Part shown: in pieces, positions 5,060-52,271 of the stretch
Numbering within the stretch: position 1 is the stretch's first letter
How the letters are laid out: each line of letters starts with the position of its first letter
Origin: Candidatus Hydrogenedentota bacterium
GTDB taxonomy: Bacteria; Hydrogenedentota; Hydrogenedentia; Hydrogenedentales; JAEUWI01
Length of the DNA stretch: 52,702 bases
Assembly: GCA_024280935.1 (NCBI GenBank)
Contig: JAJRPE010000175.1
Location: 1 to 52,702, forward strand
Reading direction: 5' to 3'
The notes under the pieces: model-generated
The model's database searches: none
What the model was told of the DNA's origin: nothing
The model's input: only the letters and a program-made list of their open reading frames with translations
Program-made: the position numbers and the translations under genes

Positions 5060-6673
5060 ATGAACGTCGGAAAACTGCGAAACCCGCGTCTGTGGCTGCT
5101 GTGCATTGTTTTGCTTGCCGCTGTACTGCGTCTTTTCGGGCTGGGCAGCTTCAGTCTGTGGTATGACGAAGGGGCCAGCCTCTATCTCGGCAACTACGTC
5201 ACGACCCCCGCCGCGCTCTTCGATTCCTCCAAGAATATTGAGCCGCCCGTGAACGCCATCATGACGGGGCTTTGGTCCGGCCTCGTCTCGGCGCTCAGCC
5301 CAACGAAAGTTACGGATGGCACCCACGATTTTCTGCTGCGGCTTCTCCCCTGGTTCTTTGGCGTACTTAATTGCGTGCTGGTCTATTGCGTGACCCTGGC
5401 CCTCTATCGTTCGCAGCCCACGGCCCTTTGCGCCGCCTTCCTCTTCGCCATCGCCCCCTTTCAAATCTATTACGCCCAGGAACTCCGTGTCTATGGGCTG
5501 TACATAACGCTGTCGCTCCTCGCGGTGTGGTACATGACGAGCGCCCTGTCAGAAAACCGTCTCAAGCACTGGGCGGGCTTCGTCCTGTCCCTCGCCGTTC
5601 TCATGTATTGCCACTATTTCTCCATGTGGCTCATCTTCACCCTCAACGTGGCCTTCGTCGCCCTGCTCGGAAAATACAAACACCTCTTCTGGCGCTGGAC
5701 TGCGGCCAATGCGCTATTGATGCTGCTCATCGCACCAGCCCTGTACCGCGCCTTCGCCATGCATGCCGAGGTACAAAACCTGGAAACGGCCTGGTACCCC
5801 AATCCTACCTGGAAAACCGGCCTCATTACCTTCAAGATATTTTTCGCGGGCTATGGCCCGACGGTCTGGGCTTATTGGCCCCTCTTTCTCTTGGCCTTGG
5901 GCTTGTGGGGCTTCGGTATGCGGCGAAAAGGCAATATGGGCACCCCGACGGTCATCATCGCCTGTCTCACCTGGATACCTCTCATCGGCTGTATCTGGCT
6001 ATGGGGCCGCGCCGACTTTTCCTTCTACGAGCACCGCCTCTTTCTGTTCTCCGGCGTCGCCGCCCTGATCGGAGCCGCCCGTGGCATCGTCCTCCTCGGG
6101 CGTCCAGGCGCGATTGCGTTGGGCCTCGTGCTCCTGCTGACACTGCCCTGCCTGGGGGACTACTACCAGGGACGGCTCCACCCCATCCTCGAACACCGTC
6201 TCGGCATGTCGGACAAGGTCGATTTCCGCAGCGTGGCGCGTGTCCTGGAGGCGCAGTGGGAACCGGGCGACCGGCTGGTGTACGCAAATCTGTTCAGCGC
6301 CTATCCCCTCTATCACTATTTTCCACGAGACCAAGTGCAGTTGGGCTGGGATATACGGACGGAAGAATATCTCATTGGAATGTTGGGCCATGAAGCCCTG
6401 CTTCGGAAACACAAGCTTCTGCCCGTGATCAAGGAAGACGCTATCGCAGCCGCAACGCGCCTCTGGTTTGTCCGAACCCATGGCATAACCTTTGAATCAC
6501 AGCCCTTTTCGGACCGCATTGAGGCTTGGCTGGAATCGGTGGCGACAAAGGAGGAGACCCTGAACTTTGATGGGGTTACGTTGGTGCGCTATGTGCCAGA
6601 GCAGATGGAGCCTGTCCAAAACGAAAAAACGAACGAATGGCCACAATCAAATCCAAGCCCCTCTCCTCCATAA
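5060..6673 (+). CDS. Glycosyltransferase family 39 (ArnT/PMT-like) polytopic membrane protein
   Basis: LRLFGLGSFSLWYDEGASLYLG is followed by about 12 hydrophobic segments and a soluble C-terminal domain. The 4937 GTG start is rejected because it lies inside the BC repeat. ATG 5060 gives MNVGKLRNPRLWLL... Confidence 0.8.
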   Translation: MNVGKLRNPRLWLLCIVLLAAVLRLFGLGSFSLWYDEGASLYLGNYVTTPAALFDSSKNIEPPVNAIMTGLWSGLVSALSPTKVTDGTHDFLLRLLPWFFGVLNCVLVYCVTLALYRSQPTALCAAFLFAIAPFQIYYAQELRVYGLYITLSLLAVWYMTSALSENRLKHWAGFVLSLAVLMYCHYFSMWLIFTLNVAFVALLGKYKHLFWRWTAANALLMLLIAPALYRAFAMHAEVQNLETAWYPNPTWKTGLITFKIFFAGYGPTVWAYWPLFLLALGLWGFGMRRKGNMGTPTVIIACLTWIPLIGCIWLWGRADFSFYEHRLFLFSGVAALIGAARGIVLLGRPGAIALGLVLLLTLPCLGDYYQGRLHPILEHRLGMSDKVDFRSVARVLEAQWEPGDRLVYANLFSAYPLYHYFPRDQVQLGWDIRTEEYLIGMLGHEALLRKHKLLPVIKEDAIAAATRLWFVRTHGITFESQPFSDRIEAWLESVATKEETLNFDGVTLVRYVPEQMEPVQNEKTNEWPQSNPSPSPP

Positions 6674-6682
6674 AACACCACT

Positions 6683-6813
6683 ACGGGTGCCACGGGTAGG
6701 CCTCTCAGGGCTTTACCCGTGTAGTGCCTGCCGACAATCAGGGGACTATACAGTTTCATGAGACCTTGGGTTTTTCACGGGTAAACCCTGCGGGCCTACC
6801 CGTGGCACCCGAC
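6683..6813. repeat. Inverted pair of A-type units (6683-6724 forward, 6776-6813 reverse) around a 51-bp spacer
   Basis: acgggtgccacgggtaggcctctcagggctttacccgtgtag ... cacgggtaaaccctgcgggcctacccgtggcacccgac. It starts 10 nt after the GT39 stop. Confidence 0.9.
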
Positions 6814-6837
6814 GTATCTCTCTTGAGAATCTAAAGT

Positions 6838-6940: not shown

Positions 6941-7434
6941 CGGCTATGCCATAGTCCGCGAAGCGGATGTCGGACTAAAGCCTGGGGTGAAGCGAGGCAC
7001 GAGCGGAGCCCCAGGAAGCGAATAGCAATAACGAGAAAAAGCCCGCGAAGCGGGTGACGGACAATCGGGCTGGCTTGGTAAAACACGGCACACAAGAGGA
7101 GCTGCCAAATGGGTTCATCGTATTGCAATGCAATCTCATCTACCCCATGGTGTTTTCAACCAAGGGCCGCCAAAAATGGATTGACAATACAATCTCAACC
7201 AGGAGGAATCTCACAAGGAGATGACGTTCCAAGTCGAATTCATCGGGCTGCTTGAAAAGCATCGCGTTGGATACAATGAACGGTATCTGTGGGACTGATG
7301 GGTTTCCGCCACCCGCTTCGCGGGCTTGGGGTTCAGGTATAACATTGGTCCTGGGGCTACGCTCGTACCTCGCTTCACCCCAGGCTTTAATCTGTCACCC
7401 GCTACGCGGGCTATTGGGAAACACTTGATAGCCG
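6941..7434. mobile_element. Decayed REPtron: inverted composite REP arms (6941-7064, 7301-7434) flanking a RAYT-like transposase remnant
   Basis: The arms align in inverted orientation. Each holds three hairpin modules (YCCGCG-WAG-CGGR; CCTGGGGTGAAGCGAGGYACGAGCGNAGCCCCAGG; GCCCGCGAAGCGGGT). The interior holds the remnant at 7132-7298. Confidence 0.65.
7132..7298 (+). pseudogene. Remnant of an IS200/IS605-like Y1 (REP-associated, RAYT) transposase: N- and C-terminal ends only, frameshifted
   Basis: Frame 1 reads (L)QCNLIYPMVFSTKGRQKWIDN, which resembles the conserved N-terminal ..L.H.VFSTK.R.P.I.. of this family. Frame 3 reads FQVEFIGLLEKHRVGYNERYLWD*, which resembles the typical C-terminus ..LL.K.G.E.DERY.WD. 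The HUH/Tyr core is missing. Family assignment is from memory of family sequences. Confidence 0.5.
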
Positions 7435-10084: not shown

Positions 10085-12523
10085 ATGATTGAAGACCGGT
10101 TTGTAGACCAGATCAGTGCGCGGGTTGGCGCGAAGCCAACCCAGGTGAAGGTCGCCATTGAGTTTTTTGACAAGGGAGCGACCATCCCGTTTGTGGCGCG
10201 GTACCGCAAAGACGCGACCGGAAATCTGGACGAAGTCAAGCTGGAAAAAATTGAATCCCTCAATACCCAGGCCATAGCTTTCACCAATCGTCGCAACGCC
10301 GTGCTTGAGAATATCGGGAAGCAAGAGAAGCTGACGCCCGCCCTCAAGAAACAGATAGAGGATTGCATGGACCCGGTGATTCTTGAAGATCTCTATCTGC
10401 CTTTCAAGAAGGCCCGCAAGACCAAGGCCACCGTGGCGCGCGAGCAGGGTCTGGAACCCCTGGCAGAGATTATCTGGGGCCAAGCCGACACCGGGAAAAA
10501 ACCGGAGGAAGAGGCTGCCGCCTACGTGAGCGAGGAAAAGAACGTTGCCGATACCGAGGCCGCGTTGCAGGGCGCCCGCAATATACTGGCCGAGCGGATG
10601 GCGCAAGACGCCGAACTACGCCAACATGCCCGCAACGTGTTTCACGAGGAGGGAGTGCTCACCACCTCCGCCACCAAGAACACCGAAGGGCAGAAGACCA
10701 AATTTGAAGCCTACTACGACTTCAAAGAGCCGATTAAGTCGATGCCGTCCCACCGTCTCCTGGCCGTGCTGCGCGGTGTGCGCAAAGGATTTCTCCGCAT
10801 GGACCTCGCGGTCAACGATGAAGCTATCCGCAGCGATATGTTGAGTCGTTTCTGCACCGACGCTGACGGACCCTTCGCCGCACAACTTGAGTTGGTGGTC
10901 GAGGACAGCTACAAGCGCTTGATTCAGGCAACCATCGAAAACGAGGTAATTCAGGCGGCCCGCACCACTGCGGACGAGGCTGCGACCCAGGTTTTTCGTG
11001 AAAACGCGGAAAACCTTCTGCTCGCGTCGCCTGCGGGGCACAAGCCTGTTCTGGGGGTGGATCCTGGAATTCGCACGGGTTCCAAGCTGGCGGTCATTGA
11101 TGGCCAGGGCACCTACCACGAGAGTGCCACCGTCTATCCCACGGAACCCAAGAAGGACGAGGCCGGTGCGACGACTGCACTGCTGAAACTCATCAAAGGC
11201 CACAACGTGGAATTCATCGCCATAGGCAATGGCACCGGCTCCAAGGAGATCAACCAGTTTATTCGCAAGGTCTTGAAGGAAAATGAGCTGGCATCGATTA
11301 CAACGGTTCTGGTAAACGAAGCGGGAGCCTCGATCTACTCTGCTTCGGAAGTGGCCCGCACGGAGTTTCCTGATTTGGATCTTACGATTCGCGGGGCCAT
11401 TTCCATCGCCCGTCGCCTTCAGGACCCCCTCGCCGAGCTGGTAAAGCTGGAGCCCCGCCATGTCGGGGTCGGACAGTACCAACACGACGTGAACCAACGG
11501 CAGCTCCGGGATGGACTCACGAAGACCATCGAGTCGTGTGTAAACCGTGTGGGCGTGGATCTAAACACAGCATCGGTTGAATTGCTACGGTATGTTAGTG
11601 GCATTCAGCAAAACACGGCCCAGAATATCGTCGCGCACCGCATAGAAAAGGGTCCTTTTGTCAACCGTACCCAGTTGACAGACGTGTCAGGGGTCGGCGA
11701 GAAGACCTATGAGCAGTGCATCGGATTCCTCCGCATACAAGACGGTACGGAACCCTTGGACCAGACCGCGATTCACCCCGAAGCCTATGGTGTCGTTGCG
11801 GCCATGGCGGAAGGCCTGTCTGTTGAACCCGCAAAGCTCATCCGCGCAAAGGAACTGGTCGACAAACTGAATTTGGACGATTTCGCCAGCGGGACGGTGG
11901 GGACGCTGGCCTTGTCCGACATCAAGCGCGAGCTTCTGCGACCAGGCCGGGACCCCCGAAGCGTCTTCAAGGCCCCTGAATTCCTGGATGGTGTCGATGA
12001 TGTCAAGGATCTGGAAGTTGGCATGGTCAGTGAAGGCGCGGTGACCAATGTAACTGACTTCGGGGCATTCGTTGATATCGGTGTTCACCAGGACGGCTTG
12101 GTCCATCTCTCCGAATTGGCGAACCGGTTCATAAAAGATCCCCACGAAGTGGTGAAGGTAGGGCAGATAGTGCGCGTGAAGGTTATCAAGATCGATACCG
12201 AACTCCAAAGGGTTTCTCTGTCCATCAAAGCATTGCAATCTCCGCCGAAGCCACGAGAACGTGATAAGAGTCGGGGGGCCGAGGGTGGGAAGCCGACCGA
12301 GAAGTCGGGTAACCGACCGACAAGTGGCGGCGCGAGGCCCCAATCTCGCCGCAAGCCCAAGCACGCCAAGAGCGAGGGCACGTCGGGAAAGCAACGCCCC
12401 CGAAAATCGGACCGAGAAAAGGGTAGTGGTACCCGCAATAAACCGGGCGGCGCGCAGGAGAATATGAATACCTTGCTCGCTGACCAACTGGCCGCCCTGA
12501 AAGACAAATTTGGCAGTCGCTAG
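10085..12523 (+). CDS. tex: Tex-like transcription accessory protein (YqgF/HHH/S1 domains) with basic C-terminal tail
   Basis: GATIPFVARYRKDATGNLDE, VLGVDPGIRTGSKLAVID, and S1 domain VGMVSEGAVTNVTDFGAFVDIGVHQDGLVHLSEL. The last 95 aa or so are K/R/G/P-rich. Confidence 0.95.
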   Translation: MIEDRFVDQISARVGAKPTQVKVAIEFFDKGATIPFVARYRKDATGNLDEVKLEKIESLNTQAIAFTNRRNAVLENIGKQEKLTPALKKQIEDCMDPVILEDLYLPFKKARKTKATVAREQGLEPLAEIIWGQADTGKKPEEEAAAYVSEEKNVADTEAALQGARNILAERMAQDAELRQHARNVFHEEGVLTTSATKNTEGQKTKFEAYYDFKEPIKSMPSHRLLAVLRGVRKGFLRMDLAVNDEAIRSDMLSRFCTDADGPFAAQLELVVEDSYKRLIQATIENEVIQAARTTADEAATQVFRENAENLLLASPAGHKPVLGVDPGIRTGSKLAVIDGQGTYHESATVYPTEPKKDEAGATTALLKLIKGHNVEFIAIGNGTGSKEINQFIRKVLKENELASITTVLVNEAGASIYSASEVARTEFPDLDLTIRGAISIARRLQDPLAELVKLEPRHVGVGQYQHDVNQRQLRDGLTKTIESCVNRVGVDLNTASVELLRYVSGIQQNTAQNIVAHRIEKGPFVNRTQLTDVSGVGEKTYEQCIGFLRIQDGTEPLDQTAIHPEAYGVVAAMAEGLSVEPAKLIRAKELVDKLNLDDFASGTVGTLALSDIKRELLRPGRDPRSVFKAPEFLDGVDDVKDLEVGMVSEGAVTNVTDFGAFVDIGVHQDGLVHLSELANRFIKDPHEVVKVGQIVRVKVIKIDTELQRVSLSIKALQSPPKPRERDKSRGAEGGKPTEKSGNRPTSGGARPQSRRKPKHAKSEGTSGKQRPRKSDREKGSGTRNKPGGAQENMNTLLADQLAALKDKFGSR

Positions 12524-12568
12524 GGCAACTTATTAGTATTAATAGTGATAAATAGGCGATTGTTTGTC

Positions 12569-12597
12569 TTGACATTCTTGCGGGCGTATGCTACGGT
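12569..12597 (+). promoter_or_regulatory. Candidate sigma-70 promoter upstream of the dksA-like gene
   Basis: TTGACA (12569-12574), 17 nt, then TGcTACGGT (extended -10 type). It would give a leader of about 175 nt containing the hairpin cagcttca-ggactcat-tgaagctg. Confidence 0.4.
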
Positions 12598-12780
12598 TTT
12601 CCAGCTTCAGGACTCATTGAAGCTGCGTTGCCAGCGTGGTCGAGTAACGTGCGTTGTGAAACCCGCAGGGAACCCGTCTAACTGGGCAATTTCTTCGCCT
12701 TGCTGGTACAATTGCCATGTTCCATCGCTGTAGCAAGGGGCAAGCCGGTCAGAACCGGAAATGCAGGAGACAAACGCAGT

Positions 12781-13149
12781 ATGAATAAGCGCGATTTAAA
12801 AAAGTTTGAAAAGCTGCTGAGGGCCGAGCGAGAACGGCTTACGGGCAGCATCAAGAATATTGAAGATGCGTCCCGATACGAATCCGGGCGCGACAATAGC
12901 GGTGATTTATCCAGCTACGCCGAATCCGGCACGGACAATTTCGAACTGGAAACGGCACTCAATATCGCCAGCGGCGAATCCAATTGGCTCAGTGAGGTTA
13001 CCGAAGCCCTTGGGCGGGTGCAAGATGGCACCTTCGGCAAATGCGAGGGATGTGAAGCCGATATCCCAAGGAAACGCCTGGAGGCGTTCCCATCGGCGAA
13101 ATTCTGTATTGTCTGCCAGGAAGATATCGAAAAGCAGAACGCTTATTAG
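12781..13149 (+). CDS. DksA/TraR-family C4 zinc-finger protein
   Basis: A coiled-coil N-terminal part, then CEGC-x17-CIVC. AGGAG lies 11 nt upstream of ATG 12781. The longer ORF from 12700 has no support. Confidence 0.88.
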   Translation: MNKRDLKKFEKLLRAERERLTGSIKNIEDASRYESGRDNSGDLSSYAESGTDNFELETALNIASGESNWLSEVTEALGRVQDGTFGKCEGCEADIPRKRLEAFPSAKFCIVCQEDIEKQNAY

Positions 13150-13430
13150 TGCCTTCCTCATAGAGCCTCGAACACGCGCTTTCCGGGAGTGTCCAAGGGG
13201 CTGGAGGAAGGGCGTAATAGAAGAACACCACGGACACTGTGCCGCCCTTTCAGGGCTGTTATTATTTCTTCATTCTAACCCAAAGGCGTTGCCCTGGGCT
13301 AACCTGTTGTGCCCCTTCGGGGCGCTGACCCCATAATCCAAGGCTATAATAGCGCCTCCCCGCTTCGTACGTTCGAAACCGCGTTGCCAGCGGAGTGTGC
13401 TATGCACCAAAAGATATGGGTAAAGACAAG

Positions 13431-13643
13431 GTAAGCGTTCACGGCCCATGCCATCTTGGCCCTTTAAAAACAACAGTCGGGTGCCATGGGTAGGCCTCTG
13501 AGGGCTTACCTGTGTAGTTCCTATCGGTGAGGGAGACGACCCAAAACCAGAGACAGTGCATCTGCACGGGTAAACCCTACCGGGCCTACCCGTGGCACTC
13601 GACGGTCTTTTTGTTGACTATAGTTGCCCGTTCCAACGCTTAC
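13431..13643. mobile_element. MITE (213 bp) with termini GTAAGCGTTCACGG / CCAACGCTTAC and a perfect 8-bp TSD AAGACAAG; cargo is an inverted pair of A-type units
   Basis: AAGACAAG occurs at 13423-13430 and again at 13644-13651, immediately outside the inverted termini. The interior holds A units at 13476-13517 and 13565-13603. Confidence 0.8.
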
Positions 13644-13719
13644 AAGACAAGAAACTCGTACGGATGCACGCTGAACATCGTAAGTACATCCTGCGAAACC
13701 TATAAGGTCGCTTCACACT

Positions 13720-14568
13720 ATGTATCCCACCATTCTTGAGCTGGGTCCGATAACGATTCATTCCTACGGCCTGATGATTGCCTTGGGCTTTATCACCATC
13801 CTCTATTTCATGCAACGGGATGCCAAGCGGGTCGATGTTGATCCCCAGGCAATCGCGGACATGGCCTTCTGGTCCTTGCTAATTGGTGTCGCGTCCTCGC
13901 GTTTCTTCCACGTTATCATGTATCCAGAGCACTATACTTGGGGCGATCCCTTCGGATGGATTGACGTGCGGCGGGGGGGATTGGTCTTTCAAGGGGCCGT
14001 TCCTACCGTCGTGTTGTATGTGGCCTGGTCGCTGAGACGGCGTAAACTATCCTTTCGAACCGTGGCCGATGTCGTCATGCCCTATGTGTCGGTAGCCCAG
14101 GCCTTCGGGCGTGTGGGCTGTTTCTTAAAGGGGTGTTGCCATGGTTCGCGGGCCGACGAGCTTTTCTGGGGCGTGCGGTTCCCGCAAGAAAGTCCAGCCT
14201 TTGCAACCCACCAGCGCCACTATCCGAACTTTCCCGCTGATGCCACGTTGTCTTACCCTGTTCACCCCACGCAGCTTTACAGCATTGCCCTGCTTCTGGG
14301 CATGTGCGGCCTTCTCTTGTTGTTGCGCAGCAAGCGCCCCTTCGAAGGTGCCACCTTCCCGGCCTACTTTGCCTTGTATGGCATCTGTCGTTTTATTGTG
14401 GAGATTTTTCGCGGGGACGGCAATCCGACCAGCACCTGGCTCGGCATTGATTTTACGACCCAGCAATTGTTCTGCCTCGGCATGATAGTCTTCGCCATCG
14501 TGGCGTGGATCATTATGAAAGCTACCCGCGACAAGAATGCCGATCCGACCTTTCCAACGCCAGGATAA
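13720..14568 (+). CDS. lgt: Prolipoprotein diacylglyceryl transferase
   Basis: ITIHSYGLMIALGF, GRVGCFLKGCCHG, HPTQLYS, and multiple TM segments. Confidence 0.9.
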   Translation: MYPTILELGPITIHSYGLMIALGFITILYFMQRDAKRVDVDPQAIADMAFWSLLIGVASSRFFHVIMYPEHYTWGDPFGWIDVRRGGLVFQGAVPTVVLYVAWSLRRRKLSFRTVADVVMPYVSVAQAFGRVGCFLKGCCHGSRADELFWGVRFPQESPAFATHQRHYPNFPADATLSYPVHPTQLYSIALLLGMCGLLLLLRSKRPFEGATFPAYFALYGICRFIVEIFRGDGNPTSTWLGIDFTTQQLFCLGMIVFAIVAWIIMKATRDKNADPTFPTPG

Positions 14569-14666
14569 TCGTTCGGAGTCTACCCCTTGGCAATTTGGTC
14601 TTCCTGAACACTTTCGGTATACTGTTTTCAGTAGATTGTAATAGGCTCACAATCTTGGGAGTCCCT

Positions 14667-15569
14667 ATGTGGCGCTTTGTGCATGTGACTGATCCGCATC
14701 TTGCAAGTCAACGCGATGGCATTTGGAACAATCGTTTTCTTTGTACCATGATGCCCGATGTTATGGCGTGCCTGAGAAAGGACCTGGCGGGCCTGAAACC
14801 CGACTTTATGCTTCTCACGGGGGATATTGTCAGCGCCCAGACACGGGCGGCCATGTTCGAGGCGCGGGACGAAGTAGAACGCCTGGGTGTCCCCTATTAT
14901 CCGATGGGGGGAAATCACGACTTTGTGCTGGAGGAATCGCGGGCGTGGTTCCTTGATGCCTTTAATGAGCGTCTGCCGGAGCCGCGCACTTACTATTCAT
15001 TCAGCCACAAGAATCTTCACTTTTGTGTTTTGGATGCCTGGTGGATGTGGTCCGATGGCTCACTGAACGAGACTAGCGAGGCCAGTGTCATGGAGGACCT
15101 GGACCAATCGCTCGAAGGCGCACGGTGGGCCGTGCCCCCCCATATACTCGACTGGCTGGAGGAAGATCTGGCGTTGCATGCGGACACGGCCACGGTGATT
15201 GCGGTCCACTATCCGGTAGTCCCGATTCCCATGCGCCTTCACAGGCCGGAGTTCAACAACGGGGGATGCCTCGAAAATGGCGATCTGCTCTTGGCATGTT
15301 TCGCCAATCATCCGCAGGTAAAGGCAATCTTTTCCGGGCACGTACACATGCATTTTGTGGAGCAAGTCAATCGTCTTACCCAAATCGTTACGGGGGCGCT
15401 ACCCGAGTATCCGACAGAGTTTCGTGACGTGCAAGTCTATTCAGACCGTATGGAAATACAGACCCTGGGCCTGAGCAATGGCGAGTTTGCCCAACGGTCG
15501 CTCTTGCCCGGAAAAGAATGGACGGCGGGCGAAAGGTGTGACCGAAAAGTGATTGTTCCCTTGATGTGA
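14667..15569 (+). CDS. Calcineurin-like metallophosphoesterase
   Basis: MWRFVHVTDPHL, TGDIV, GGNHD, SGHVH. ATG 14667 is preferred because the upstream part of the 14505 ORF overlaps lgt. Confidence 0.85.
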   Translation: MWRFVHVTDPHLASQRDGIWNNRFLCTMMPDVMACLRKDLAGLKPDFMLLTGDIVSAQTRAAMFEARDEVERLGVPYYPMGGNHDFVLEESRAWFLDAFNERLPEPRTYYSFSHKNLHFCVLDAWWMWSDGSLNETSEASVMEDLDQSLEGARWAVPPHILDWLEEDLALHADTATVIAVHYPVVPIPMRLHRPEFNNGGCLENGDLLLACFANHPQVKAIFSGHVHMHFVEQVNRLTQIVTGALPEYPTEFRDVQVYSDRMEIQTLGLSNGEFAQRSLLPGKEWTAGERCDRKVIVPLM

Positions 15570-15575
15570 TGCGCT

Positions 15576-16058
15576 TTATTTTGGAGGCACCGTTAGTGCA
15601 AACACGAGCACCAATTCTTTACCCCCCTTTTGTTTGAGTCCCCGAACCACGAGTTGTTTATCTGGTTGCAGCAATAACTCGGTGGAAACTGCTTCGATTT
15701 CTTTGGGCGGCTTATCGGTTGTCTTCATCAGGATCCGAAGGCGAAGGCGAAGGCGACCATCGGAAGTGGCGACCGGTGGTTTCGTCTCAAGCGTGTAGGT
15801 CTTGGTGATCATTATTCGGGTGAGTCCATCCGCCAAGAGGGTGTGCTTGCCCGTATGCACTTTGCGATAGGTATCGTGTGGCAGCGCTGACAGTACACGT
15901 TCTATCGCCTCCAGCCCCTTGTCGTACTGGGGCTTCTCACGCTTTTCGGTGGTGGCCTCGACAACCCACAGCTTGAGTTCTGAACCCTCCGCAGCTTGGG
16001 CAGCGCTCCAAGGGAAAGCAATCACAGCCAACAAAACGGCGAGAAGACACCGAATCAT
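15576..16058 (-). CDS. Small secreted hypothetical protein (160 aa) downstream of the ECF sigma/anti-sigma pair
   Basis: ATG 16058 gives the signal peptide MIRCLLAVLLAVIAFPWSAAQA. No family recognised. The GTG 16241 extension runs through a repeat motif and does not look protein-like. Confidence 0.6.
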   Translation of the reverse strand: MIRCLLAVLLAVIAFPWSAAQAAEGSELKLWVVEATTEKREKPQYDKGLEAIERVLSALPHDTYRKVHTGKHTLLADGLTRIMITKTYTLETKPPVATSDGRLRLRLRILMKTTDKPPKEIEAVSTELLLQPDKQLVVRGLKQKGGKELVLVFALTVPPK

Positions 16059-16240
16059 TATTGAGACGACCGGGCCAAAGCCAACAAATTCGTGCTGAGT
16101 TGTCCCTCGCAAAACAGGTCCCTTGCTTCCTATAGTACTTCTTGCAAAATCAGGCACTAACGTGGCGGGGCCACAACCGAGATTTATGGTCCCTGGCGCG
16201 CGCCGCCTGAGAATTCTCTTGGTTCTTCCAGATTGAGGCA

Positions 16241-16693
16241 CTAAAAATCATCCTCGGCGATGGAAATCCAGATCGTCGTTACGCCATCATCGGAGATGTC
16301 CCAATGGGCGGTTCCCCCCTCAAGCTGGGTCGAAACCGACTCCACTTCGTTGGCCTTCACAGGCCCCGGCCCGGTAAACATGGAGAAGGTCGCGATGGCA
16401 ATAACCAAGGCCGCCGCCGACAGGCTCATGAGCGCCCAGATGCCGCCGGGCCGCTTTCGCGAATGGGAGACACCCTCGTGAATTCCCTCCATAAAGGCCG
16501 GGAACTGTCCATCGGAGAGGGACGGCGCTTCAGGCAATGCGCCTAAAGCGGAACGCATATGCAGCATCGTCGCACGGTGCCGGGCGCATAAGGCGCAGTC
16601 GGCGATGTGCGCTTCAACCGCGCTATGGTCGTGGGACTCTCCGTCGGTATATGCTTCGACTTTTTGGGTCCATTTACACGTGTTCATAATCAT
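16241..16693 (-). CDS. Anti-sigma factor (zf-HC2 type), single-pass membrane protein
   Basis: H-x3-C-x2-C (HIADCALC), TM segment IWALMSLSAAALVIAIATFSMF, and an ATGA start/stop overlap with the sigma gene at 16690-16693. Confidence 0.8.
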   Translation of the reverse strand: MIMNTCKWTQKVEAYTDGESHDHSAVEAHIADCALCARHRATMLHMRSALGALPEAPSLSDGQFPAFMEGIHEGVSHSRKRPGGIWALMSLSAAALVIAIATFSMFTGPGPVKANEVESVSTQLEGGTAHWDISDDGVTTIWISIAEDDF

Positions 16694-17331
16694 CCACCCT
16701 CCACGTAGCCCATCGCGGCCAATTTGTTCTGCAACTTCTTCCGGGCATGATGTAAGCGGCTCATCACCGTGCCTTCGCTGCAATTCATGACTTCCGCCAT
16801 TTCCTTGTAGGACAGCCCTTCCAATTCCCGCAGCACGAAGGCCATGCGATGTTTTGGAGAAATTCCGTCCAGCGCACGCTGTATTGCCATGCCCAGCTCT
16901 GTGTTGGCCAGGTCCTTGGCGGGATCCGACCGGGCAGGAAAAAGGTCCTGGGTCGGCATAGCGTCCATGGAAACCGTCGGAAGACGCCGTTTCTTAAAAT
17001 GATCCTTACAATGGTTGGCTGCAATACGCAGCAACCATGTTTTAATCCCTGCGTCCCCCCGAAAGCGCCCGAGGGAGCGGAAGGCCTTAATGAAGACCTC
17101 CTGCGAAACATCCCAAGCTTCTTCCCGGTCACGGAGGAAATGGTAACTCAGCCCATATACGTCATTGCGGTAGCGCCGTACCAACTCTTCAAATGCCTGC
17201 GACTCGCCAGATTGTGCACGGGCCACCAATTCCTGGTCGGTTGCATTGCGCGGTGGGGGCTGATTTTCCACAGGCTCCTCTTCCACAGCAGCGTGATCGT
17301 AGAACAAACGGGCTTCAATGGGTATGCTCAT
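16690..17331 (-). CDS. ECF-subfamily RNA polymerase sigma-70 factor
   Basis: Region 2: FEELVRRYRNDVYGLSYHFLRDREEAWDVSQEVFIKAF. Region 4: FVLRELEGLSYKEMAEVMNCSEGTVMSRLHHARKKL. Confidence 0.92.
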   Translation of the reverse strand: MSIPIEARLFYDHAAVEEEPVENQPPPRNATDQELVARAQSGESQAFEELVRRYRNDVYGLSYHFLRDREEAWDVSQEVFIKAFRSLGRFRGDAGIKTWLLRIAANHCKDHFKKRRLPTVSMDAMPTQDLFPARSDPAKDLANTELGMAIQRALDGISPKHRMAFVLRELEGLSYKEMAEVMNCSEGTVMSRLHHARKKLQNKLAAMGYVEGG

Positions 17332-17395
17332 ACGCTGAGTCTCCTCATTCCGAGGATAAAGACGCAGCCTGGCGACAAGTATTCAAAAAATAATC

Positions 17396-17543
17396 GTAAG
17401 CGTTCAGCCCCAAGGGGATTTTACACCGTCATTCCCACGCACGTGGGAATTCCAGAACGCGGTAGAAACCTCTTCGGTCATGCTGGATCCCCGCATTCGC
17501 GGGGATGACGATCTATTTTTGTATTCAGATGGTGAACGCTTAC
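17396..17543. mobile_element. MITE (148 bp), termini GTAAGCGTTCAG / GTGAACGCTTAC, 8-bp TSD AAATAATC; cargo is the D-type double hairpin
   Basis: AAATAATC occurs at 17388-17395 and 17544-17551. The interior has tcattcccacgcacgtgggaat and ggatccccgcattcgcggggatga hairpins, the reverse orientation of 24885-25002 and 46118-46226. Confidence 0.8.
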
Positions 17544-17551
17544 AAATAATC

Positions 17552-17643
17552 GTAAGAGTTCACGGGGCCGAAAAGGCTCCCCTCCTTGGCGGGGAACATA
17601 AGGACGTTGGCTCCGCCAACCCAAAACATGGGTGAATGCTTAC
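17552..17643. mobile_element. MITE (92 bp), termini GTAAGAGTTCAC / GTGAATGCTTAC, flanks AAATAATC / AAATAACC; cargo is the H-type module
   Basis: It directly abuts the previous element and shares its right-hand duplication. The interior matches the outer part of 9862-9989. Confidence 0.75.
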
Positions 17644-25516: not shown

Positions 25517-25521
25517 AACGA

Positions 25522-25560
25522 CACGGGTAAGCCCTGAGAGGCCTACCGGTGGCACCCGCC
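25522..25560. repeat. A-type palindromic unit, 6 nt after the rpiB stop
   Basis: cacgggtaagccctgagaggcctaccggtggcacccgcc. Confidence 0.85.
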
Positions 25561-25725
25561 GGTTGTTTATTAATGGTCAATATAACCCAAGAAAACTTTT
25601 CTTGTTGAGTTCGAACAGGTTTTCATCGAGGTTACAATGGCAGGGGCACAACCGAGAATTGGGGCCCTTGCCGCACGCAGCTTGAATTGAAATTGTTGGG
25701 GGTATTTACGCATGGAGAATAGTGA

Positions 25726-27120: not shown

Positions 27121-27231
27121 GCTAAGCGTTCACGCCCTTCTGCTATTTTTATTTCACCTCGACACGACAAAATACGGCTACCGCACGGGCAAGGGCTATC
27201 GCCCCTTGTCCGTGGCACGCCTGACGCTTCC
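27121..27231. repeat. Shell-type element with A-variant hairpin cargo; left terminus GCTAAGCGTTCAC, right terminus degenerate
   Basis: gctaagcgttcacgccc ... gcacgggcaagggctatcgccccttgtccgtggcacgcc ... ctgacgcttcc. No TSD seen. Confidence 0.55.
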
Positions 27232-42386: not shown

Positions 42387-42562
42387 GTAACGTGTGCGTT
42401 CACAGTCGGCAGGCGTGCGGACTTTCCAGTCCGCAATAAAGGCAGCGCGATACCAGCACAGGCCGCTTGGCACGCTTGTATCACTCACGGTCCTCGGTGC
42501 ATACAACGCGTACCTTGTGCCGGGTAAGAAAACCCGTCCTCCCGTTTTCCGTGGACGCTTAC
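42387..42562. mobile_element. MITE-like element with BC-type cargo, copy 2; termini GTAACGTGTGCGTTCAC / GTGGACGCTTAC
   Basis: The BC core 42405-42552 aligns with 4825-4972. Shell-like termini are recognisable. No clean TSD. Confidence 0.65.
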
Positions 42563-51995: not shown

Positions 51996-52145
51996 TCGAT
52001 TCCCTCCCCTTAAATCGCCCCGTGAATATCTATCGGAACGATAATATACAAATGGGACGGCCCTCAATGACTACAATCATAGACAATAAAAGCGGCGTAA
52101 AACAAAAACGTCCAGAATCCGAATGCCCTGTGCAGTGAAATCTTC

Positions 52146-52271
52146 GTAAGCATTCACACCCTCCGCTTTTTTCTTGATATCACCTTGACCCTATAAAAAC
52201 AACCTTCGGGTGCCACAGACAAGCCCGGTAGGGCTTGTCCGTGGCACCCCAAGTGGCCCGTGAACGCTTAC
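52146..52271. mobile_element. MITE (126 bp), termini GTAAGCATTCAC / GTGAACGCTTAC, perfect 8-bp TSD AAATCTTC; cargo is an A-variant hairpin
   Basis: AAATCTTC occurs at 52138-52145 and 52272-52279. The interior hairpin is gggtgccacagacaagccc-ggta-gggcttgtccgtggcaccc (52208-52249). Confidence 0.8.

What the first reader, a model, noticed from the sequence alone, without database searches (positions are those of the whole stretch)
13423..13651. Independent copy of the same shell with a different perfect TSD (AAGACAAG)
The layout is AAGACAAG | GTAAGCGTTCACGG ... CCAACGCTTAC | AAGACAAG. The flanking octamer differs from the one at 17.4 kb and from the one at 52.1 kb, while the termini are the same. 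That is what distinguishes a target-site duplication from element sequence. The cargo here is an inverted pair of A-type units (13476-13517 and 13565-13603), a third kind of interior.
Basis: seen in the sequence. Interest (0 to 1): 0.65.

Follow-up and report, generated by a model that had tools for sequence, protein, structure and literature searches.

The report
IS66-type miniature transposon upstream of lgt
A 213-bp non-coding mobile element (a MITE with the end sequence of IS66-family insertion sequences) sits between the dksA and lgt genes of an uncultured Hydrogenedentota bacterium, flanked by a perfect 8-bp target duplication; it is a clean but ordinary transposition footprint.

Summary
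AAGACAAG (13423-13430) | element 13431-13643 | AAGACAAG (13644-13651), with a perfect 9-bp terminal inverted repeat GTAAGCGTT/AACGCTTAC.

The left end, GTAAGCGTTCACGG, is identical over 14 nt to the end of a complete 1,697-bp single-ORF IS66-family insertion sequence in a Nostoc contig (PF03050, E=2e-37). It also matches the end of a truncated copy in a Planctomycetaceae MAG. IS66 elements are known for GTAAGCG ends and 8-bp duplications. The window has no IS66 transposase, so the element is non-autonomous.

Other copies in the window carry different octamers (AAATAATC, AAATCTTC). Logan contigs from ten metagenome runs show many further copies whose flanks diverge exactly at GTAAGCG and GCTTAC.

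The interior is an inverted doublet of REP-like "A" hairpins. The same doublet also occurs without the shell at 6672-6826.

A conspecific MAG (99% identity) has the same insertion. Relatives with 76-81% identical Lgt have 149-223-bp spacers instead of 570 bp, with no element, but they are too diverged to show the exact empty site.

The right end of this copy is 3 nt shorter than in other copies, so it may be immobile.

The parts
13423..13430 (.). Left copy of the 8-bp target-site duplication, AAGACAAG
   Evidence: (family D1)
13431..13643 (+). The 213-bp non-coding MITE. It has no ORF attributable to a transposase. As a single strand it folds into one long foldback.
   Evidence: Fold -102.7 kcal/mol, z = -7.5. 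tblastn with an IS66 transposase finds nothing in the window.
13431..13444 (+). Left terminal inverted repeat, GTAAGCGTTCACGG. It is identical to the end of the IS66-family IS in L057 and in L086.
13467..13517 (-). Left A-type REP-like unit: a hairpin plus a GCACCCGAC-GTTGTTTTT tail that points outward to the left
   Evidence: (I1)
13518..13561 (.). Spacer between the two A-type units. It is partly conserved with the spacer of the shell-less doublet at 6672-6826 and is multi-copy in metagenome runs.
13562..13612 (+). Right A-type REP-like unit, with its tail pointing outward to the right
   Evidence: (I1)
13630..13643 (-). Right terminal inverted repeat. The last 9 nt (13635-13643) are perfect. 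The inner part is degenerate and 3 nt shorter than the family consensus GCCGTGAACGCTTAC.
   Evidence: (I5); loose ends at 13631
13644..13651 (.). Right copy of the 8-bp target-site duplication, AAGACAAG
12781..13149 (+). Upstream flanking gene: dksA/traR-type zinc-finger protein (122 aa as called in the conspecific MAG)
   Evidence: Pfam PF01258, E=6.5e-12; gene call in L121
13720..14568 (+). Downstream flanking gene lgt (prolipoprotein diacylglyceryl transferase). Its start codon lies 68 bp after the right duplication copy.
   Evidence: Pfam PF01790, E=1.1e-56

Best explanation
The element at 13431-13643 is a non-autonomous miniature inverted-repeat transposable element (MITE). Its ends are those of an IS66-family insertion sequence, most like the single-ORF (ISBst12-type) group.

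Inferred mechanism: an IS66-family DDE transposase encoded elsewhere recognised the two GTAAGCGTTCACGG-type ends. It cut the target with an 8-bp stagger at AAGACAAG in the dksA-lgt spacer and joined the element to it. Gap repair then produced the two AAGACAAG copies.

The core of the element is an inverted doublet of REP-like 'A' hairpin units. This composite (ends plus A-unit core) has itself been copied to many sites.

The insertion is older than the split between the window's strain and a 99%-identical MAG. Its right end has since lost 3 nt, so this copy is probably a fossil.

Shown here: the anatomy, the duplication, the identity of the end with IS66-family ends, the multiple copies with different flanks, and the absence from more distant relatives.

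Inferred, not shown: the acting transposase, the transposition chemistry, and any effect on lgt or dksA expression.
For: The anatomy and the perfect 8-bp duplication are. Such a structure is expected about 0.005 times per window by simulation and is seen twice, both times with the same end.

IS66 link:
- L057 (Nostoc) carries a 1,697-bp element that begins with the identical 14-mer and ends with its inverted copy. Its single 493-aa ORF hits PF03050 DDE_Tnp_IS66 (E=2e-37), zf-IS66 and DUF6444. Its database relatives are named IS66 family transposase.
- L086 (Planctomycetaceae) has the same 14-mer followed by the N-terminus of the same transposase type before the contig ends.
- Literature: IS66 inverted repeats start with GTAAGCG and give 8-bp direct repeats (PMC11946415). 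The ISBst12 group is the single-ORF branch, and ISDge4 gives an 8-bp direct repeat (PMC12898284).

Generality: among loci with the same 14-mer from Thermoguttaceae, Pirellulales, Sedimentisphaerales, Planctomycetaceae, delta-proteobacterial/Thermodesulfobacteriota and Anaerolineales genomes, 14 of 28 end pairs have 8-bp duplications matching at 7/8 or better (one element counted on both strands). All the octamers differ.

Multiple copies: in ten metagenome runs, contigs match parts of the element and then diverge exactly before 13431 or after ...GCTTAC, with low-agreement flanks. For example, 18 contigs in X1 continue GCCGTGAACGCTTAC plus varied flanks.

Non-autonomy: there is no IS66 transposase in the window.

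Comparative: L121 is 98.98% identical over 5.2 kb and has the same insertion with 1 substitution. Relatives with 81% and 76% identical Lgt have spacers of 223 and 149 bp, against 570 bp here, with no element.
Against: No unoccupied site was found. The spacers of relatives are too diverged to align. The exact empty-site 28-mer is absent from JGI metagenome contigs. No contig in ten runs skips the element.

The full-length elements with the same end come from other phyla.

The terminal inverted repeat of this copy is perfect over only 9 bp.

The interior is a REP-type doublet that also exists without the shell. A second mobilisation route for the core cannot be excluded.
Confidence: 0.85

Rival explanations
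1. The whole element is a REPIN-like foldback, that is, an inverted REP doublet mobilised by a Y1 (RAYT/TIRYT) transposase. The GTAAGCG ends would be incidental outer parts of that repeat.
For: The interior is an inverted doublet of hairpin units, and the whole element folds as one long hairpin. The same doublet occurs without the shell at 6672-6826, close to what reads like a decayed RAYT gene. In metagenome runs the summed contig depth on the A units is tens to hundreds of times that on the shell ends.
Against: Y1-transposase-mobilised REP and REPIN elements do not make target duplications (established knowledge of the HUH/Y1 mechanism); here the duplication is a perfect 8 bp. The ends match a DDE IS66-family IS over 14 nt. 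The same ends enclose unrelated interiors at 17396-17543, 17552-17643 and 42392-42562. Pfam gives no hit for the putative RAYT stump.
Confidence: 0.05
2. It is a MITE, but of another IS family that also makes 8-bp duplications (for example IS256, ISL3 or an IS4/IS5 group), not IS66.
For: An 8-bp duplication is not unique to IS66. No transposase was linked to the element within the same genome.
Against: The end starts with the IS66 hallmark GTAAGCG (PMC11946415). It is identical over 14 nt to the end of an element whose only ORF is a PF03050 IS66 transposase, and to a second such element.
Confidence: 0.05
3. It is a host-encoded structured regulatory element of the dksA-lgt spacer (a terminator, insulator or RNA-stability hairpin). 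The flanking octamers would be a coincidence.
For: The fold is strong (-102.7 kcal/mol, z = -7.5). Each A unit is followed by a run of T. A units elsewhere sit just after stop codons, for example at 25517.
Against: It is absent from the same spacer in relatives that keep the gene order. The sequence is multi-copy with varied flanks. The octamer-plus-inverted-repeat structure is far beyond chance. The terminator scan does not flag it.
Confidence: 0.03

Closest known systems
IS66-family insertion sequences, single-ORF ISBst12 group (e.g. ISBst12, ISDge4), and the unnamed 1,697-bp Nostoc element in L057
   Same: The terminal sequence starts with GTAAGCG and is identical over 14 nt to the L057 element. 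The target duplication is 8 bp. (PMC11946415; PMC12898284.)
   Different: The element has no transposase gene and is 213 bp rather than about 1.4-2.7 kb. Its interior is unrelated to any IS and is made of REP-like hairpins. The host phylum is Hydrogenedentota.
Bacterial MITEs that share ends with a resident IS (e.g. MITEPsy1/ISPsy2 in Pseudomonas syringae, PMC3189936)
   Same: Short and non-coding. The ends match those of an IS. It makes the family-typical target duplication, is multi-copy, and is presumed to be moved in trans.
   Different: Here one end sequence encloses several unrelated hairpin-rich interiors within one genome. The same 14-nt end is used by MITEs in several phyla. Mobility was not shown experimentally.
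REPINs / REP doublets and the GTAG/CGTC-tagged palindromes with RAYT or TIRYT Y1 transposases
   Same: The interior is an inverted pair of REP-like hairpins that folds into one long hairpin. The same doublet exists on its own at 6672-6826.
   Different: The whole element is bounded by DDE-type inverted repeats and an 8-bp duplication, which Y1 transposition does not produce.

Membership tests
IS66-family-derived MITE | Terminal inverted repeats that begin with GTAAGCG | tested here: met
   Left end GTAAGCGTTCACGG; right end ...AACGCTTAC, perfect over 9 bp. The hallmark is stated in PMC11946415.
IS66-family-derived MITE | 8-bp target-site duplication | tested here: met
   AAGACAAG on both sides, exactly 8 bp. 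About 0.005 such structures are expected per window.
IS66-family-derived MITE | Ends shared with a bona fide IS66-family element that encodes a PF03050 transposase | tested here: met
   The L057 1,697-bp IS has an identical 14-mer end and a single ORF hitting PF03050 at E=2e-37. L086 is a second case, truncated by its contig end. Both come from other phyla.
IS66-family-derived MITE | Short, with no transposase of its own | tested here: met
   213 bp. tblastn with the L057 transposase finds nothing significant in the window.
IS66-family-derived MITE | Several copies at different sites with different duplications | tested here: met
   Window copies carry AAATAATC and AAATCTTC. Metagenome contigs diverge exactly at the element ends into varied flanks.
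IS66-family-derived MITE | A cognate autonomous IS66 element in the same genome or lineage | not testable with these tools
There is none in the 52.7-kb window. The 120 best homologues of the L057 transposase that carry a name are cyanobacterial.
IS66-family-derived MITE | An unoccupied orthologous site with a single copy of the octamer | tested here: inconclusive
   The conspecific MAG is occupied. Relatives with 76-81% identical Lgt lack the element, but their spacers do not align. The empty-site 28-mer is not in JGI contigs. No contig skips the element.
REPIN / RAYT-mobilised REP doublet (for the whole element) | Inverted pair of REP hairpins that forms a long hairpin | tested here: met
   Arms 13467-13517 and 13562-13612; foldback fold. 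This applies to the interior only.
REPIN / RAYT-mobilised REP doublet (for the whole element) | Insertion without target-site duplication and without DDE-type terminal inverted repeats | tested here: not met
   A perfect 8-bp duplication and IS66-type ends bound the element.
REPIN / RAYT-mobilised REP doublet (for the whole element) | A cognate Y1 (RAYT/TIRYT) transposase in the genome | tested here: inconclusive
   Frames at 7100-7298 read like the N- and C-terminal ends of a RAYT, but Pfam gives no hit. Earlier notes report a TIRYT gene elsewhere in the genome; I did not check this.

The most novel reading that the evidence does not exclude
The GTAAGCGTTCACGG 'shell' and the A-type REP doublet form a true chimera that two unrelated enzymes can move. 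An IS66-type DDE transposase would act on the ends and a Y1 RAYT/TIRYT enzyme on the hairpins. In this repeat-saturated Hydrogenedentota lineage, new MITE subfamilies would arise repeatedly when REP units land between a pair of IS66 ends.
Probability: 0.12. Interest if true: 0.5.

Novelty: new member of a known kind. Interest (0 to 1): 0.25.

Why it matters
This is a tidy, well-bounded example of an IS66-family MITE in a phylum (Hydrogenedentota) with no cultured, genetically studied members. It gives usable end sequences and a target-duplication length for annotating the many short repeats of this genome.

It also shows that one 14-nt IS66-group end is shared by full-length elements in a cyanobacterium (L057) and a Planctomycetaceae MAG (L086). 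MITEs with that end occur in Planctomycetota, delta-proteobacterial/Thermodesulfobacteriota, Anaerolineales and Hydrogenedentota genomes, each with an unrelated interior.

It does not change the understanding of transposition. Any effect on lgt or dksA expression is untested.

Tried and rejected

2. Genome-contig scan with the 14-mer. I estimate several thousand chance matches to a 14-mer in 596 Gb, so many hits lie inside genes and are chance. The window's own genome was not among the loci. The scan still gave the Nostoc IS, the Planctomycetaceae IS start, and about a dozen MITEs with duplications.

3. Clustering of ORFs lying inward of the 14-mer, to find a shared transposase. It found none, because only one full-length copy was present.

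4. Empty-site 28-mer in metagenome contigs: 0 hits.

5. A family-specific gapped pattern (A-unit tail plus right end) in metagenome contigs: 0 hits.

6. Looking for an empty allele as a joint in Logan contigs of ten runs: none. The only joint skips 54 nt inside the doublet, in one contig.

7. Closer relatives through Lgt and DksA look-ups. Only the conspecific MAG and relatives at 81% identity or less have DNA.

8. Searching for Hydrogenedentota homologues of the IS66 transposase. The 120 listed hits that carry a name are cyanobacterial.

9. Rfam on the spacer: nothing on the element. The promoter/terminator scan found nothing convincing on the + strand within the element.

10. Pfam on the RAYT-like stump at 6991-7298: no hit.

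Full report
**Observation**

The sequence reads ...GGGTA AAGACAAG | GTAAGCGTTCACGG ... CCGTTCCAACGCTTAC | AAGACAAG AAACTCG....
- The octamers lie at 13423-13430 and 13644-13651.
- The element is 13431-13643 (213 bp).
- The repeat finder reports the octamer pair (D1), the perfect 9-bp terminal inverted repeat GTAAGCGTT/AACGCTTAC (I5), and the 51-nt inverted arms 13467-13517 / 13562-13612 (I1).
- The bases just outside the octamers differ, so the duplication is exactly 8 bp.

A scan for [8-mer][perfect 9-bp inverted repeat, 40-400 bp apart][same 8-mer] finds two such structures in the window, both with GTAAGCGTT. It finds one in 200 simulated windows. The 14-mer with up to 2 mismatches occurs 6 times against 0.36 expected.

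**Other copies in the window**

| Coordinates | Length | Flanking octamers |
|---|---|---|
| 17396-17543 | 148 bp | AAATAATC both sides |
| 17552-17643 | 92 bp | AAATAATC / AAATAACC |
| 52146-52271 | 126 bp | AAATCTTC both sides |
| 42392-42562 | 171 bp | degenerate copy, no duplication |
| 27122 to about 27229 | about 108 bp | degenerate copy, no duplication |

The shared part is only the terminal 14-16 nt, consensus GTAAGCGTTCACGG(G/C). The interiors differ.

**Host and gene context**

The flanking genes are a dksA/traR zinc-finger gene and lgt, with Tex upstream and a metallophosphoesterase downstream. The closest Lgt is 96% identical and belongs to a Candidatus Hydrogenedentes MAG.

That MAG's contig (L121, GCA_021647925.1) is 98.98% identical to window 12338-17512. 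It carries the same element at the same site, with the same octamers and one substitution. The contig ends inside the 17396 element, as expected for a repeat.

A contig in run X6, about 95% identical, also covers the occupied left junction.

Relatives with 81% (L122) and 76% (L124, L125) identical Lgt keep the gene order. Their dksA-lgt spacers are 223 and 149 bp, against 570 bp here. They contain no GTAAGCG end and no AAGACAAG. These spacers do not align with the window, so they show absence of the element but not the exact empty site.

The empty-site 28-mer is absent from JGI metagenome contigs. No contig in ten public runs skips the element.

**What the ends are**

It nevertheless yielded L057, a Nostoc contig that starts with GTAAGCGTTCACGGGGGAAATTA.... 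At 1,697 bp it carries the inverted copy ...TAATTTACCCCCATGAACGATTAC. Between the two ends lies a single 493-aa ORF. The ORF hits PF03050 DDE_Tnp_IS66 (E=2e-37), zf-IS66 and DUF6444. Its relatives in the databases are named IS66 family transposase.

L086 (Planctomycetaceae MAG) has the same 14-mer. About 160 bp further in, the N-terminus of the same kind of protein begins, and then the contig ends.

Published descriptions agree:
- IS66-family inverted repeats start with GTAAGCG and the family makes 8-bp direct repeats (PMC11946415).
- ISPsk01 has the inverted repeat GTAAGCGTCCGG... (PMC12888890).
- The ISBst12 group is the single-ORF branch, and its member ISDge4 transposes with an 8-bp repeat (PMC12898284).

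The window holds no IS66 transposase, so the element is non-autonomous.

**Generality of the behaviour**

Among the 120 loci, 28 matches have a partner end GTGAACNNTTAC within 1 kb. Of these, 14 (one element counted on both strands) are flanked by 8-bp repeats matching at 7/8 or better, and all the octamers differ. They come from Thermoguttaceae, Pirellulales, Sedimentisphaerales, a Planctomycetaceae MAG, delta-proteobacterial/Thermodesulfobacteriota MAGs and Anaerolineales. Their interiors are unrelated to the window's.

**Copies of this very subfamily**

Logan contigs of ten metagenome runs were laid on the element. Three patterns emerged:
- Many contigs match 13563/13572-13631 and then continue GCCGTGAACGCTTAC followed by varied sequence: 18 contigs in X1, 10 in X9, 4 each in X4 and X5.
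- Other contigs end at 13430/13431 with varied upstream flanks.
- One contig in X6 covers 13431-13573 with a different left flank.

The same data show that this copy's right end is 3 nt shorter than usual: TCCAACGCTTAC against GCCGTGAACGCTTAC.

Summed contig depth on the right A unit is up to about 4,000 in X1, against about 22 on the left end. A units are therefore far more numerous than shells. These depths sum over all organisms in the run and are not copy numbers.

**The interior**

The two units are REP-like hairpins (CACGGGTAAGCCC-loop-GGCCTACCCGTG) with a tail GCACCCGAC-GTTGTTTTT that points outward. Further units lie at:
- 1841-1899 and 25517-25583 (single units, the latter right after a stop codon);
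- 6672-6826 (the same inverted doublet, with a partly similar spacer but no GTAAGCG shell);
- 52196-52252 and about 27185-27220 (variants inside other shell copies).

The whole 213-nt element folds as one foldback, at -102.7 kcal/mol and z = -7.5. Rfam has nothing on it. The terminator scan does not flag it.

**Interpretation**

This is an IS66-family-type MITE whose core is a REP doublet. It was inserted by a trans-acting DDE transposase with an 8-bp staggered cut at AAGACAAG, before the split of two 99%-identical strains. It is now probably immobile because of its damaged right end.

The REPIN-only reading fails on the duplication and on the DDE-type ends. The reading as another IS family fails on the 14-nt identity with PF03050 elements. 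The host-regulatory reading fails on multi-copy status and on absence from syntenic relatives.

**What could not be done**

There is therefore no genome-wide flank census and no search for the partner IS in this genome.

Earlier notes of this scan on sibling findings (17.4 kb and 42.4 kb) reached the same IS66-MITE reading. I treated them as leads and re-derived the link independently from L057 and L086.

Noticed in passing
window 13269-13350: A second multi-copy repeat in the same spacer. Summed contig depth jumps to about 357 (X1) and 141 (X4) here, and loose ends cluster at 13285 and 13324. Rfam gives a sub-threshold hit to Acido-Lenti-1 RNA at 13280-13324 (22.9 bits against a gathering score of 37; E=0.0065).
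   Followed up: no
window 6672-6826: The same inverted doublet of A-type units, with a partly conserved spacer, lies here without any GTAAGCG shell or octamer repeat. It sits about 115 bp from inverted hairpin arrays around frames that read like the two ends of a RAYT gene (7100-7298). Pfam gives no hit for those frames.
   Followed up: partly
window 12781-14568 vs L121: Divergence between the window and the conspecific MAG is uneven: 0 differences in 369 nt in dksA, 1 in 229 nt in the element with its two duplication copies, and 33 in 849 nt (3.9%) in lgt. This suggests a recombination boundary near the lgt start.
   Followed up: no
L057 1-1697: A complete single-ORF IS66-family element in a Nostoc MAG contig. 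Its ends are GTAAGCGTTCACGGGGGAAATTA / GTAATCGTTCATGGGGGTAAATTA. The contig starts at the first base of the IS.
   Followed up: yes
L076 3558-3600: A 43-bp palindrome made of nothing but two GTAAGCGTTCACGG ends facing each other, in a Deltaproteobacteria MAG. It has no 8-bp duplication. It may be a minimal shell or an excision or deletion remnant.
   Followed up: no
L001, L035, L055, L071, L087 (Planctomycetaceae MAG MFD04944.bin.2.203): A family of 101-133-bp MITEs with the same left 14-mer and right end GTGAAC(A/T)GTTAC. The flank repeats of L001, L035, L055 and L071 fit only if shifted by one base, which suggests a 9-bp duplication or one extra terminal base. L087 shows no flank repeat.
   Followed up: partly
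window 27122-27229 and 42392-42562: Two degenerate shell copies (ends CTAAGCGTTCAC... and GTGTGCGTTCAC...GTGGACGCTTAC) without target duplications. They are presumably old insertions.
   Followed up: partly
window 13423-13430, 17388-17395, 52138-52145: All three perfect duplications in the window start with AA and are A/T-rich (AAGACAAG, AAATAATC, AAATCTTC). Duplications of same-end elements in other phyla show no such bias. The sample is too small to call a target preference.
   Followed up: no
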